64,000 nt of DNA, from NCBI GenBank assembly GCA_036785375.1, contig JAWMAR010000044.1, positions 1,550,001-1,614,000 on the forward strand. Reading direction: 5' to 3'. How positions within the stretch are numbered: the first letter of the stretch is position 1; each line of letters starts with the position of its first letter. Of this stretch, positions 1-3,000 are shown piece by piece. Position numbers: made by a program. Origin of the DNA: Leucoraja ocellata (lineage: Eukaryota).

Positions 1-3000
1 TTGAAGTTGACCTATCCATGAGGTTATATCTTACAATGTCTCAGGTGGAGATATATTTGCACATTTAGTTACGCTCGGTCTAGTTGGGCTGCTGACTTTT
101 AGGATGACTGCACAGTGAGGTGGTGGAATTGTTATACTTCCCGTCCGCTTCTCTCTCCCCTAGACTAAGGTGGTTGTGACTGTCAATGTGACTTCCCCCG
201 ACCTGTTTCGCATCGTCTTCCGCTTCGTGAACCGTGGTCCCGCTGATGTGAAAGGAATGGTGGTGGTCAGCGAGGTGAATCTTGACGTTTGTGGCAACTG
301 TAAGTGGCGCTCTGACCTTTGTAATTCACCTTTAAAAAGTCGTTGCTGCTAGTCCATCCTTTTTCCTGCAAGTCCAGGGACCTGCTCCCATCTTTGGTGA
401 ATTGGCAATGCTTGTGGGTGTGGACGAGGCCAACATAATTTGCAGGTGGATGCTTCTTTTACTGACAAGTAGACTTTGCATTTATTATATGGCAGCCTAC
501 TTTGCTACTTGTCACACCTCTGTGCCATTGTCAAATGCCTTCTCGTTTTTGCAGAATAGAGTCACAATGACAATGCATGTGATGGATTTGCAGCTTTATT
601 TGTTTAATTTCATATTGAGGTCTATTAATGCAGGATCTGTCATAGTGTTTGGCAAAGTTGCAGCTTATCAGAGACAAAGAACAGGTAAGATTTTAGCCAC
701 ACAGATGCTGGTCTCTACAAGGTGGCGGTTAAAGTGGGTGCATTGTTGCACTGCAAGCAACGATTCTTGTGCAATGTCCCCAACCGAGCTTAAAATGATG
801 TGGATGGTACATTATTCATTGCTGGGTTCTTTGCCACCTGTAGCCATTGCTGAAATAGCCTCTTGCCTAATAATCTCACAAGTCACTCCTTAGTTTTTTT
901 TTGTTCCTGTCCATCTGCAGTAGTGGTACTGGACACACATTGATATCCCATGGAAATAATATTGCATTTTCCTCTCTCCTGTATCTTTCTTAAACACCTC
1001 CCTGTTCATTTAATTGAGAGTTTGGAAGCATCTGCAGTTGTTTGTTTCTACAACTTATAGAATGACAATCCCCTCCTTGGTTATAGCGCACAATCGGCAA
1101 TAACAGACACCATTCTTCCCCCTATGTGTAAGGAACTGCAGATGCCGGTTTACACTGAAGAAAGACACAAAATGCTGGATTAACTCAACGGGTGAGGCAG
1201 TATCTCTTGGATAAAAGGAATGGGTGACGTTTTGGGTCAAGACTTTTCATCAGACCCAAATGTCACCTATTCCTTTTCTCCAGAGAACCCGCTGAGTTCC
1301 TCCAGAATTTTGTGTTATTCTTCCCCCTATGATCCGTTACAATGAGGGTAAGCTGTTCTGAAATAAAACGTTAGCATTACCTGTGATGCCATTAAAATTA
1401 AATTGACGTAAAATTTACTAAGTAAAATTAAATTTACTTATGTCCAGTGGAGGAAATCAACCATGTTCTAACTGTGTCATCAGACCAAGAGTTTAGTCTC
1501 AACTTCTGTCTGAAATGGTCAGGAAGGGAGGGGAAAACTCAGATGGATGTTAATGCCAGGCTTTCTAATGGCAACCACATCCTGGGATGAACTAAAATGC
1601 TTGAGGAAGGAAAATGGACAGATGTTTGTATCAGAAAATTGTGAATATACTGTAGAACAGATGTTAGGAAGTCATCTTCACAGAAGATTGGTTAGTAAGG
1701 ACTTTGAGTTGTGGTAATGAAAGGTGGATAAATGATTATTTTTCTATCCACGCTAATTTAGTGAACCCTACAAACCCATTGAGGAAGAAATTGTTTTTGA
1801 GGTATAGTTTCCCAATGGTGCTTAGAGGCTAAGTTAATGGTTTATCGCATTGATACTGAATGCATTCTATCCAATATTCAAATGTGGCATTGCCCATATC
1901 ATCTACAATTTAATTTGGATCATTCTTGCTTTGCAATTCAATTGATAAATTTATTGTGTTTCAGGGAAAGGTCCATATTCTTAAATCACTATTTGTGGAA
2001 AATTGGCAGCCTCATGGCAGCATGGTAGTTGCTGCCTCAGCTCCAGAGACCTGGGTTCGATCCTGACCACGGGTGCTGTCTGTACGGAGTTTGTACATTC
2101 TCCCCATGGCCTGCGTGGGTTTTCTCCGGGATTTCCGATTTCCTCCCACACCCCAGAGACGTACAGATTTGTAGGCTATTTGACCTGGTATAACAGTAAT
2201 GTAAGGCAGTGTTGGTGTGCGGGGACAGCTGGTCAGTGTGGACCCAGTGGGCCGAAGGGCCTGTTTCCACGCTGTATCTCTAAAATAAAATAAACACGTC
2301 TTGTGTCAGTTTTAATTAATGATATTTGGCCACTTTAAAGAGTGGAAATAATGTAACCTTTTGTGGATTGATGCCCAGGTTCGGAACAAACCAAGCAAAT
2401 CATATTTACACCCAGCACCGAGCCAACCTTTGTCACCGTGCCACAGAATACCTTCGTGGAACCTTTCGTGCTCAACCCTGGTATATGGTCTGTGATGATC
2501 GAAGCTGAGGATATCCTCTTGGTAAGAATCATTTGTTGTGGATTTAACATCTGGGACCAGGTGCTGCTGAACATAAAGTGATGCACAATTGAGTTTCTTT
2601 GTGTTATGACTTTAAGACATAAGGTCTAAGTGTAGATGCAGGAAGCAAATGTTGACATTGTACTCACTAGCTATTTGGAGTAGGTATTTATAAAACAGGA
2701 ATGCACACATTCACTTGGACCATCTCCAACATCTCCCTACCGTTTCTAGATCCCACCGTCTCCATCACAGGAGACAGATTATTGACCAACATCTATTACA
2801 AACCCACCGACTTCCATAGTTATCTAGACTACACTTCTTCCCACCATGTTTCCTGTAAAGACTCTATCCCCTACTCCCAATTCCTCTGTCTACGCCGCAT
2901 CTGCACCAAGGATGAGGTTTTCCATACCAAGTCATCGGCGATATACTCATTCTTTAGTAAACGGTGGTTTCCCTCTTCCATTATAGATGAGGCTCTCACT

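What the first reader, a model, noticed from the sequence alone, without database searches (positions are those of the whole stretch)
1112..1331. Palindromic, TSD-flanked mini-elements built from two inverted Penelope tails
Seen: ~150-240 bp fold-back units made of two opposed Penelope terminal-repeat copies with no coding sequence, each bracketed by a ~15-bp direct repeat. Examples: perfect ATTCTTCCCCCTATG (1112-1126/1317-1331); 13427-13442/13610-13625 (1 mismatch); 15551-15565/15765-15779 (1 mismatch); 16228/16394; weaker at 59287/59536. Similar inverted pairs without a clear TSD lie at ~23560, ~31290 and ~62095. Known: Penelope-like elements often carry partial inverted terminal repeats. 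Inference: each palindrome arrived in one event with a consistent staggered cut of about 15 bp. Because the centres differ between copies, they are either minimal Penelope insertions primed on both target strands or a non-autonomous, hammerhead-associated fold-back family that looks like a MITE but is retro-derived.
Basis: partly seen in the sequence, partly recalled or inferred. Interest (0 to 1): 0.72.

Follow-up and report, generated by a model that had tools for sequence, protein, structure and literature searches.

The report
Minimal head-to-head Penelope retrotransposon insertions
These short hairpin-forming repeats are very short copies of a Penelope-like retrotransposon, laid down as two head-to-head end pieces in a single insertion; this is a known habit of that element class, not a new kind of mobile element.

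Summary
At 1112-1331 a perfect 15-nt direct repeat brackets a 190-nt fold-back. The repeated unit is the 3'-terminal part of an endonuclease-encoding Penelope-like element (PLE). At five loci it lies directly 3' of GIY-YIG-coding ORF remnants, and it carries a minimal hammerhead motif (7 exact matches, 0.01 expected).

The window holds 37 units plus three weak or short arms. These form 10 head-to-head pairs, against 0.84 expected by random placement. Six of the 10 pairs have flanking duplications above chance, 9 to 16 nt long, not a constant 15.

The fold-backs are not symmetric. By a tail profile, 7 of 10 loci have exactly one arm with the 30-40-nt PLE "tail", and none has two. Every junction differs, so the pairs were made anew each time and are not a self-copying fold-back family.

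All of this matches the published PLE insertion architecture: an inverted 5'-truncated copy, a one-sided tail and a TSD. It also matches in-vitro evidence that a PLE protein extends both cut strands from two start sites.

Verdict: minimal PLE insertions, most likely primed on both target strands. This is a new member of a known kind, of modest interest.

The parts
1112..1126 (.). Left target-site duplication of locus A (ATTCTTCCCCCTATG)
   Evidence: Perfect 15-nt direct repeat. 0 of 3000 random placements reach this score.
1127..1261 (-). Locus A, tail-plus arm. The PLE 3' unit (model 119-249) is sense on the minus strand, and the tail lies at 1127-1160.
   Evidence: nhmmer E = 1.4e-42. Tail profile 33.8 bits.
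1254..1316 (+). Locus A, tail-minus arm (model 143 to about 215). It ends at the right TSD.
   Evidence: nhmmer E = 5.9e-15. No tail-profile hit.
1317..1331 (.). Right target-site duplication of locus A
13427..13625 (.). Locus B. TSD 13427-13442/13610-13625 (15 of 16). Short inverted arm 13443-13498 (-), ending at model 199. Tail-plus arm 13486-13609 (+).
   Evidence: (p = 0.0013). The arms share 7 derived variants; 0 of 594 control pairs score as high.
15551..15779 (.). Locus C. TSD 15551-15565/15765-15779 (14 of 15). Tail-minus arm 15566-15663 (-). Tail-plus arm 15635-15764 (+).
   Evidence: (p = 0.0003).
16228..16404 (.). Locus D. TSD 16228-16238/16394-16404 (11 of 11). Tail-plus arm 16239-16324 (-). 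Tail-minus arm 16336-16393 (+).
   Evidence: (p = 0.0047).
23543..23951 (.). Locus E. TSD 23543-23554/23940-23951 (12 of 12) around an inverted tail-minus arm 23559-23676 (-) and two tandem direct tail-plus units, 23631-23777 and 23779-23936 (+).
   Evidence: (p = 0.002).
30376..30521 (.). Locus F. Inverted pair: 30376-30477 (-) and a weak short arm 30492-30521 (+). Both lack a tail and there is no TSD.
   Evidence: (p = 0.85).
31261..31453 (.). Locus G. TSD 31261-31269/31445-31453 (9 of 9). Tail-minus arm 31287-31377 (-). Right arm 31369-31444 (+), whose tail is degenerate and recognised by eye only.
   Evidence: p = 0.017; p = 0.0067. The tail profile gave no hit.
38774..38950 (.). Locus J. 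The inverted arm consists of the tail only, 38774-38806 (-). It faces a tail-minus unit at 38835-38950 (+). No significant TSD.
   Evidence: Tail profile 24.9 bits. (p = 0.26).
59302..59537 (.). Locus H. Tail-minus arm 59302-59396 (-) and tail-plus arm 59399-59537 (+). The flanking repeat is not above chance.
   Evidence: p = 0.84; p = 0.63.
62093..62244 (.). Locus I. Tail-minus arm 62093-62192 (-) and a weak arm 62189-62242 (+) with a weak tail signal (5.8-5.9 bits). No TSD.
   Evidence: (p = 0.41).
2710..3861 (+). Longest 5'-truncated parent-type PLE copy. ORF remnant 2710-3655 (post-RT linker and GIY-YIG region), followed by the terminal unit 3648-3861 (tail-minus).
   Evidence: tblastn with P0001 residues 130-451, 57-58% identity. 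P0001 carries RVT_1 and GIY-YIG. nhmmer E = 1.1e-48.

Best explanation
Each fold-back is one very short insertion of an endonuclease-encoding Penelope-like element (PLE). It holds only the last ~60-135 nt of the element: the end of the pseudo-LTR, with its minimal hammerhead motif.

Proposed mechanism:
1. The element's GIY-YIG endonuclease cuts both target strands with a stagger of roughly 9-16 nt.
2. Both exposed 3'-OH ends prime reverse transcription on PLE RNA.
3. Each cDNA starts at one of two internal start zones. The 30-40-nt 'tail' is the stretch between these zones, so an arm either has it or lacks it.
4. The two short cDNAs grow towards each other and are joined head-to-head near the hammerhead region.
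5. Gap filling duplicates the staggered target.

What is shown here: PLE identity, head-to-head pairing far above chance, bracketing TSDs, two classes of 3' end, and a different junction at every locus.

What is inferred from the literature: both strands are primed, and the tail reflects two start sites. This was shown in vitro for an Anolis PLE, not for this family. The joining step is also inferred.

The identity claim alone I put at about 0.9. The double-priming mechanism I put at about 0.55.
For: PLE identity:
- ORF 2671-3321 has shark and skate homologues at 57-68% identity that carry RVT_1 and GIY-YIG domains.
- tblastn places post-RT and GIY-YIG remnants directly 5' of a terminal unit at 5 loci.
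- The motif CTGANGA-N10-18-GAAACNTC occurs 7 times, against 0.01 expected. It has the unpaired base 5' of stem II described for PLE minimal hammerheads (PMC4209133, section 5 read).

Pairing:
- 10 head-to-head, 0 tail-to-tail and 1 tandem neighbour pairs at gaps of 35 nt or less.
- Random placement gives a mean of 0.84 head-to-head pairs, with a maximum of 5 in 5000 simulations.

One event per pair:
- TSDs bracket the whole pair at 6 of 10 loci: 15/15, 15/16, 14/15, 11/11, 12/12 and 9/9, with p from below 1/3000 to 0.017.
- At locus B the two arms share 7 derived variants, and 0 of 594 control pairs score as high.

Two start zones:
- The 3' ends of the 37 units fall near model position 221 or near 248 and beyond.
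- The tail-less outer ends of the arms in A, C, D and E fall in the same ~12-nt zone as the ends of TSD-flanked solo copies 20330 and 33490.

One-sided tail:
- 7 of 10 pairs have exactly one tail-plus arm by profile, and none has two.
- The binomial probability of 7 or more of 10 is 0.046-0.071.

Literature:
- The typical Penelope structure includes an inverted pLTR, a TSD and an optional 31-bp tail on one inverted pLTR (PMC3846280, passages read).
- An inverted 5'-truncated copy and a 30-40-bp tail at one end are described in PMC8557442 (passages read).
- The PAc protein cleaves and extends both strands, and the tail equals the sequence between two RT start sites (PMC11167929, main text read).
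Against: - Four of 10 pairs (F, H, I, J) have no flanking repeat above chance. For these, a single event is not shown.
- Arm-to-arm similarity exceeds similarity to other copies only at locus B. At A, C, D, G and H the shared-variant test is uninformative, and E is marginal at 0.057.
- The short arm of B ends about 20 nt inside the tail-minus zone (model 199), not at a start zone.
- The one-tail-per-pair excess is only borderline (p about 0.05-0.07). In vitro, no difference in start site between the two strands was seen (PMC11167929), so independent double priming does not by itself predict it.
- Rfam finds no hammerhead at gathering score, nor at E <= 10, in the whole window or in 59290-59545.
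- No empty orthologous site and no genome-wide census could be examined.
- The geometry of the centre does not separate double priming from snap-back.
Confidence: 0.6

Rival explanations
1. Snap-back (self-priming) of a single cDNA. Only one target strand primes reverse transcription. The 3' end of the nascent cDNA folds back on a self-complementary stretch such as hammerhead stem II and copies itself. This gives a head-to-head inverted repeat that is then joined to the other side of the cut.
For: - Arkhipova et al. 2013 inferred self-priming from the palindromes at inverted PLE junctions (PMC3846280, Discussion passage read).
- The second arm is never longer than the first and never carries the tail when the first does. 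A copy of the first arm that stops early would look like this.
- The shorter arms of A, B and C begin at or near the 3' strand of stem II, model 141-146.
- The short arm of B ends at no recognised start zone.
Against: - The tail-less outer ends in A, C, D and E coincide with the 3'-end zone of solo tail-minus copies, which must be initiation points. Snap-back gives no reason to stop there.
- The same authors note that snap-back on a sense template predicts tail-to-tail, not head-to-head, so it needs an antisense template.
- In vitro, both strands are extended (PMC11167929).
Confidence: 0.25
2. Sequential insertions. A second PLE copy landed later, in opposite orientation, at the 5' edge of an older solo copy, helped by the endonuclease's preference for PLE sequence.
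For: - PLE endonuclease recognises its own pLTR and tail sequence, and PLEs insert into their own copies (PMC11167929, main text).
- Four pairs lack a TSD.
- At A, C, D, G and H, arm-to-arm similarity is no higher than similarity to other copies.
Against: - In 6 loci a single TSD brackets the whole pair, with no second, inner duplication around either arm.
- A later insertion would need to hit the few bases between the first arm's 5' end and its TSD every time.
- There are 10 head-to-head pairs and 0 tail-to-tail.
- The arms of B share 7 derived variants.
Confidence: 0.08
3. A non-autonomous fold-back family that is transcribed and retro-copied as a whole hairpin (retro-derived but MITE-like), or a true DNA-transposon MITE.
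For: - Small size (155-199 nt for single pairs), strong hairpin potential, flanking duplications, and high local density (40 units or arms in 64 kb).
Against: - All 10 junctions differ in model coordinates: 119|143, 146|130, 122|120, 165|157, 132|119, 118|194, 131|175, 121|117, 122|191, and tail-only|93.
- The arms of different pairs belong to different sequence variants.
- The outer termini are unequal, tail against no tail, so they are not matching terminal inverted repeats.
- TSD length varies from 9 to 16, whereas DNA-transposon superfamilies give fixed, mostly shorter TSDs (general knowledge, recalled).
- Solo units with their own TSDs exist.
Confidence: 0.04

Closest known systems
Canonical insertion architecture of endonuclease-containing Penelope-like elements (Penelope/Poseidon/Neptune type; Arkhipova et al. 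2013 PMC3846280; Craig et al. 2021 PMC8557442)
   Same: 5' truncation. An inverted 5'-truncated copy lies head-to-head at the 5' side. A 30-40-bp tail is present at only one end. Short TSDs flank the whole unit. A hammerhead motif sits in the terminal repeat. Occasional partial tandems occur (locus E).
   Different: Here the insertions are truncated so far that nothing but 30-135 nt of the terminal repeat remains in each arm. The TSDs (9-16 nt) are longer than the 8-10 bp reported for the rotifer examples. The family is from a cartilaginous fish, and I found no description of it in the papers searched (listing only).
PAc (Poseidon of Anolis carolinensis) in-vitro retrotransposition (Frangieh et al. 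2024, PMC11167929)
   Same: There are two 3'-end classes separated by a tail of about 30-40 nt. The geometry of hammerhead followed by start sites is similar: the tail-plus end lies about 115 nt after the start of stem II here, against 111-118 bp into the PAc ORF, which begins at stem II. Arms on both strands are as expected if both cut strands are extended.
   Different: Nothing biochemical was tested here. [quoted passage not shown] Here several junctions show target-template microhomology (A, C, D, G). In vitro no strand difference in start site was seen, whereas here pairs tend to have one arm of each class.
Dual minimal hammerheads on opposite strands in Schistosoma mansoni (Cervera and de la Pena 2014, PMC4209133)
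   Same: Pairs of PLE-type minimal hammerhead motifs lie 100-700 bp apart on opposite strands, beside many solo motifs ascribed to truncated PLEs. The stem II has an unpaired 5' base.
   Different: In the section I read, that paper did not analyse TSDs, tails or junctions.
Animal non-LTR retrozymes (bioRxiv 10.64898/2026.07.22.740005; abstract and passages read)
   Same: Short, non-coding, hammerhead-bearing sequences related to PLE pLTRs, found as monomers and multimers.
   Different: Retrozymes are defined by head-to-tail tandem arrays and circular RNA. Here 10 of 11 close neighbour pairs are inverted and only one is tandem.
LINE-1 twin priming (recalled, no paper read here)
   Same: The second target strand also primes reverse transcription, giving an inverted segment inside one TSD-flanked insertion.
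   Different: In twin priming the second primer anneals internally, so only one end of the insertion is the element's 3' end. Here both outer ends are 3' ends of the element.

Membership tests
Endonuclease-containing Penelope-like element (insertion product) | Terminal repeat physically continuous with a PLE ORF (RT followed by a C-terminal GIY-YIG endonuclease) | tested here: met
   GIY-YIG-region remnants lie directly 5' of a unit at 5 loci. Homologues P0001 and P0008 carry GIY-YIG, and P0001, P0002 and P0006 carry RVT_1. The window copies themselves keep no RT core.
Endonuclease-containing Penelope-like element (insertion product) | RT groups phylogenetically with PLE and telomerase RTs | not tested
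   No PLE RT core survives in the window, and no tree was built.
Endonuclease-containing Penelope-like element (insertion product) | Inverted 5'-truncated copy adjacent head-to-head | tested here: met
   10 head-to-head loci against 0.84 expected; 0 tail-to-tail.
Endonuclease-containing Penelope-like element (insertion product) | Optional 30-40-bp tail, usually at one end only | tested here: met
   3' ends are bimodal. The tail profile hits exactly one arm in 7 of 10 pairs and never both. The statistical support is borderline.
Endonuclease-containing Penelope-like element (insertion product) | Short TSD flanking the whole insertion unit | tested here: met
   6 of 10 pairs. There are also 4 solo candidates of 9-17 nt, with p = 0.016-0.16 each.
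Endonuclease-containing Penelope-like element (insertion product) | Hammerhead motif within the pseudo-LTR | tested here: inconclusive
   The minimal-hammerhead sequence pattern is present 7 times against 0.01 expected. No Rfam hammerhead model matches. Cleavage was not tested.
Endonuclease-containing Penelope-like element (insertion product) | Partial tandem (pseudo-LTR) organisation | tested here: inconclusive
   Only locus E shows two direct units in tandem. No full-length element lies in the window.
MITE / DNA-transposon fold-back | Matching terminal inverted repeats that reach both ends, and a fixed TSD length | tested here: not met
   One end carries a 30-40-nt tail that the other lacks. 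TSDs range from 9 to 16 nt.
Self-propagating fold-back retro-family | Copies share the same junction and arm lengths | tested here: not met
   10 loci have 10 different junctions.
Animal non-LTR retrozyme | Head-to-tail tandem repeats of a hammerhead-bearing unit, with circular RNA | tested here: not met
   1 tandem against 10 inverted neighbour pairs. Circular RNA is not testable here.

The most novel reading that the evidence does not exclude
The mini-palindromes are natural footprints of double-ended target-primed reverse transcription. In this reading the two 3'-OH ends of one staggered break are extended from the two different start sites of one pLTR RNA or one dimeric RNP, one from each site. 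That would explain why the PLE 'tail' sits at only one end of an insertion. About half of all units also begin within a 19-nt stretch at the hammerhead. This hints that the template is a discrete short pLTR RNA, running from the promoter to a start site, and not a randomly truncated full-length RNA.
Probability: 0.3. Interest if true: 0.55.

Novelty: new member of a known kind. Interest (0 to 1): 0.3.

Why it matters
PLE transposition is the least understood of the retrotransposon mechanisms. The origin of its inverted repeats and of its one-sided tail is still described as unresolved (PMC8557442), and the first in-vitro system dates only from 2024 (PMC11167929).

Minimal insertions like these are the simplest genomic read-out of that reaction, because both priming sites, the junction and the stagger lie within 200 nt. 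A genome-wide table of them in a repeat-rich cartilaginous fish could test three things:
- whether the two target strands use different start sites;
- what the cut stagger is;
- how the two cDNAs are joined.

For annotation, these loci should be labelled as PLE fragments, not as MITEs or microRNA-like hairpins. Their palindromes give sub-threshold hits to Rfam microRNA precursor models.

As a discovery it is modest, since the architecture itself is already known.

Tried and rejected
- Rfam, whole window at gathering score: no match at all.
- Rfam, whole window at E <= 10: 14 matches, none a hammerhead.
- Rfam, 59290-59545 at E <= 10: 9 matches, none a hammerhead. In these two searches the hits at the fold-backs were sub-threshold microRNA-precursor models (plus one plastid 3'UTR hairpin model) driven by the palindromes. 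I take these hits as artefacts.
- Arm-to-arm identity against identity to all other copies: no separation except at B. These are old copies, with a median 14% divergence from the majority base.
- Shared-derived-variant test: decisive only for B, marginal for E (0.057), uninformative for A, C, D, G and H.
- TSD search for H, F, I and J, also with gaps allowed: nothing above chance.
- TSD search for 17 solo units:
  - 33490 reaches p = 0.016.
  - 20330 (14 of 17) and 21145 (12 of 14) reach p = 0.056 each.
  - 17106 (9 of 10) reaches p = 0.16.
  - 51215 has a p = 0.056 match that does not abut the unit.
  - The remaining 12 show nothing.
- Pfam on 141 stop-to-stop ORFs: no GIY-YIG or PLE-specific domain directly in window ORFs. 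Identity came from homologues and tblastn instead.
- Homologue search with the laminin-EGF ORF 61631-62053, to name the host gene: no hit among proteins of 248-2000 aa.
- Pyatkov et al. 2004 (PMC522041) is not held. What I say about it is as quoted in PMC11167929.
- The MITE reading and the fold-back-family reading are rejected for the reasons given under rival explanations.

Not done:
- Empty orthologous sites and a genome-wide census therefore stay unchecked.
- The supplementary figures of PMC11167929 (start-site maps) are PDFs and were not seen.
- The run of N at 57300-57458 was left as it is, so the 5' end of unit 57461-57561 is unknown.
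Full report
**1. The observation**

The region 1112-1331 is as described. A perfect 15-nt direct repeat lies at 1112-1126 and 1317-1331. It encloses 190 nt whose halves are inverted copies of each other (arms 84-86% complementary).

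As single-stranded DNA the 190 nt fold at -49.7 kcal/mol. Shuffles give -19.6 +/- 3.4 (z = -9.0; 0 of 200 as good). The first ~38 nt remain unpaired.

The flanking repeat is not a chance match. With element boundaries taken from a profile alignment, not from the repeat itself, none of 3000 random placements of the same span in the real window reached its score.

- 13427/13610: 15 of 16, p = 0.0013.
- 15551/15765: 14 of 15, p = 0.0003.
- 16228/16394: 11 of 11, p = 0.0047.

It does not support 59287/59536, which is 9 of 11 (p = 0.84; 0.63 with gaps).

**2. What the repeated unit is**

A blastn of 1127-1316 against the window gave 42 matches. A profile built from 11 copies found 46 matches at E <= 1, of which 37 have E <= 1e-6.

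I call 'sense' the strand on which the unit ends in ...CTGCAGTTCCTT. Longer copies extend upstream of the unit.

ORF 2671-3321 has 11 homologues. The best come from whale shark, bamboo shark and thorny skate (57-68% identity) and carry RVT_1 and GIY-YIG domains.

A tblastn with four of these proteins places remnants of the post-RT linker and GIY-YIG region at five loci, each directly 5' of a terminal unit:
- 2710-3655
- 12625-12839
- 34531-34949
- 37481-37621
- 43744-44333

An RT followed by a C-terminal GIY-YIG endonuclease defines canonical Penelope-like elements (PMC8557442, abstract). The unit is therefore the 3'-terminal part, the end of the pseudo-LTR, of a PLE.

The unit also carries CTGAAGA-A-GGGTCTCGACCC-GAAAC-GTC. 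The pattern CTGANGA-N10-18-GAAACNTC occurs 7 times, against 0.01 expected. This layout matches the 'minimal hammerhead' described for PLE terminal repeats: no helix III, a palindromic ACGT, and an unpaired base 5' of stem II (PMC4209133, section 5 and passages).

Rfam finds no hammerhead at any threshold tried. The ribozyme assignment therefore rests on the motif alone.

The host is evidently a cartilaginous fish. Nothing suggested human sequence.

**3. Anatomy of the pairs**

Adding three weak or short arms to the 37 units gives 40 pieces. Neighbours within 35 nt are head-to-head 10 times, tail-to-tail 0 times and tandem once. Random placement gives on average 0.84 head-to-head pairs, never more than 5 in 5000 trials.

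The ten loci are:

| Locus | Span | Note |
|---|---|---|
| A | 1127-1316 | the finding locus |
| B | 13443-13609 | |
| C | 15566-15764 | |
| D | 16239-16393 | |
| E | 23555-23939 | one inverted arm plus two tandem direct units |
| F | 30376-30521 | |
| G | 31270-31444 | |
| H | 59302-59537 | |
| I | 62093-62244 | |
| J | 38774-38950 | the inverted arm is the tail alone |

TSDs above chance bracket A, B, C, D, E and G, with lengths 15, 16, 15, 11, 12 and 9. F, H, I and J have none.

That complex has the 'one inverted plus two direct pLTRs' layout that is called typical for Penelope (PMC3846280).

**4. The pairs are asymmetric**

The 3' ends of all units fall into two classes, near model position 221 and near 248 and beyond. 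The difference is a 30-40-nt extension.

A profile of that extension hits 12 of the 40 unit flanks at 11 bits or more. A whole-window scan adds the tail-only arm of J at 38774-38806 and an isolated tail at 1026-1049. Among 500 random windows only two reached 11 bits, and both contain real tails.

By this profile, exactly one arm is tail-plus in 7 of 10 pairs (A, B, C, D, E, H, J). By eye G has a degenerate tail on one arm, I has a weak signal (5.8-5.9 bits) and F has none. No pair has two.

Among solo units 5 of 19 are tail-plus. If arms were independent, seeing 7 or more of 10 pairs with exactly one tail would have probability 0.046-0.071. This is suggestive, not proof.

The tail-less outer ends of A, C, D and E lie 0-12 nt after the conserved TTTGTG. 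The 3' ends of TSD-flanked solo copies 20330 and 33490 lie in the same zone. The short arm of B is an exception. It ends about 20 nt earlier.

**5. Centres and age**

The junctions, given as model coordinates of the two inner ends, are 119|143, 146|130, 122|120, 165|157, 132|119, 118|194, 131|175, 121|117, 122|191 and tail-only|93. No two are alike.

The copies are old. Median divergence from the majority base is 14%, with a range of 4-27%. This explains why arm-to-arm identity does not stand out.

Only B still shows that both arms came from one template type. It has 7 shared derived positions, and 0 of 594 control pairs score as high.

**6. Mechanism**

The published picture fits closely.
- Arkhipova et al. 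[quoted passage not shown]
- Craig et al. [quoted passage not shown]
- Frangieh et al. 2024 showed in vitro that the Anolis element PAc cleaves and extends both target strands. Reverse transcription starts at two internal sites, and the tail is the sequence between them (PMC11167929, main text read).

I therefore read each mini-palindrome as one event. The cut is staggered, both 3'-OH ends prime on PLE RNA, and each cDNA starts at one of the two zones. The two short cDNAs are then joined head-to-head, and fill-in synthesis creates the TSD.

The main rival is snap-back copying of a single cDNA, which was proposed in 2013. It explains why the second arm is never the longer one. It does not explain why the second arm stops in the zone used as a start site by solo copies.

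Sequential insertion is unlikely. One TSD encloses the whole pair in six loci, no inner duplication is seen, and no tail-to-tail pairs occur.

A self-copying fold-back family, or a MITE, is excluded by the ten different junctions, the unequal ends and the variable TSD length.

**7. Comparison and novelty**

The architecture is known. Close pairs of PLE minimal hammerheads on opposite strands, beside many solo motifs 'probably related to truncated PLEs', were already noted in Schistosoma (PMC4209133).

What this window adds is a clean set of minimal examples from a cartilaginous-fish PLE family. Their TSDs (9-16 nt) are longer than the 8-10 bp reported in rotifers. There is also a hint that the two ends of one insertion use different start sites.

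In the papers I searched I saw no description of this family or of such a tabulation. That is a statement about those three searches only.

**8. Limits**

- All of this rests on a single 64-kb window.
- No related eukaryotic genomes could be searched.
- No empty sites were examined.
- No RNA or biochemical data were available.
- The supplements of PMC11167929 were not seen.
- One unit (57461-57561) abuts the N run 57300-57458, which was left untouched.

Noticed in passing
model positions 114-132 of the unit; for example window 21145, 20330, 33490, 17106: The 5' alignment ends of 18 of 37 units fall in a 19-nt stretch at the 5' border of the hammerhead motif. For four solo copies a candidate TSD abuts this end, so the clustering is at least partly real and not only a profile artefact. 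It may mark the 5' end of a short pLTR transcript.
   Followed up: partly
1026-1049 (+) and 38774-38806 (-): Isolated copies of the 30-40-nt tail alone (12.1 and 24.9 bits). The second forms the whole inverted arm of locus J. The first stands alone, 60 nt upstream of locus A.
   Followed up: partly
1317-1322, 16394-16404, 15765-15770, 31445-31447: At several 3' junctions the first bases of the TSD resemble the template sequence that would follow the start point. As a result the profile alignment runs 6-17 nt into the TSD at A and D. [quoted passage not shown]
   Followed up: no
31270-31288: At locus G, 19 nt between the left TSD and the inverted arm resemble the last ~19 nt of the right arm's tail, in direct orientation. 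This is unexplained.
   Followed up: no
21145-21279 (+) and 21354-21433 (-): This is the only tail-to-tail neighbour pair, about 75 nt apart. The left copy has its own candidate 14-nt TSD (12 of 14) at 21131-21144/21280-21293, so these look like two separate insertions.
   Followed up: partly
whole window: Solo units are sense on the + strand 15 times and on the - strand 4 times (binomial p = 0.019). This is the same strand as the laminin-type EGF exons.
   Followed up: no
54955-55445, 59881-60345, 61631-62053 (+): ORFs with laminin-type EGF and EGF domains are probably exons of a large host gene on the + strand. A homologue search with one of them among proteins of 248-2000 aa found nothing.
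   Followed up: partly
28634-29707 (+), 26968-27456 (-), 61176-61451 (-): These are reverse-transcriptase (RVT_1) and ALKBH8_N-domain ORF pieces of a different retroelement, not the PLE.
   Followed up: no
2027-2292, 15127-15399, 18460-18606, 30570-30732, 41897-42074, 48889-49155, 52321-52490, 54103-54249, 63420-63550: Another interspersed repeat of about 150-270 nt, 70-81% identical between copies and unrelated to the PLE unit. It was not identified.
   Followed up: no
13448-13553, 59328-59471: The palindromes give sub-threshold Rfam hits to plant and animal microRNA precursor models. Examples are MIR1507 at 42.9 bits (gathering 73) and MIR847 at 45.6 bits (gathering 184). These are hairpin artefacts, but such loci could be mis-annotated.
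   Followed up: yes
57300-57458: A run of 159 N directly abuts the 5' side of PLE unit 57461-57561. It was left as it is.
   Followed up: no
23799-23818: A run of 20 C lies inside the second direct unit of locus E, in its upstream pyrimidine-rich part.
   Followed up: no
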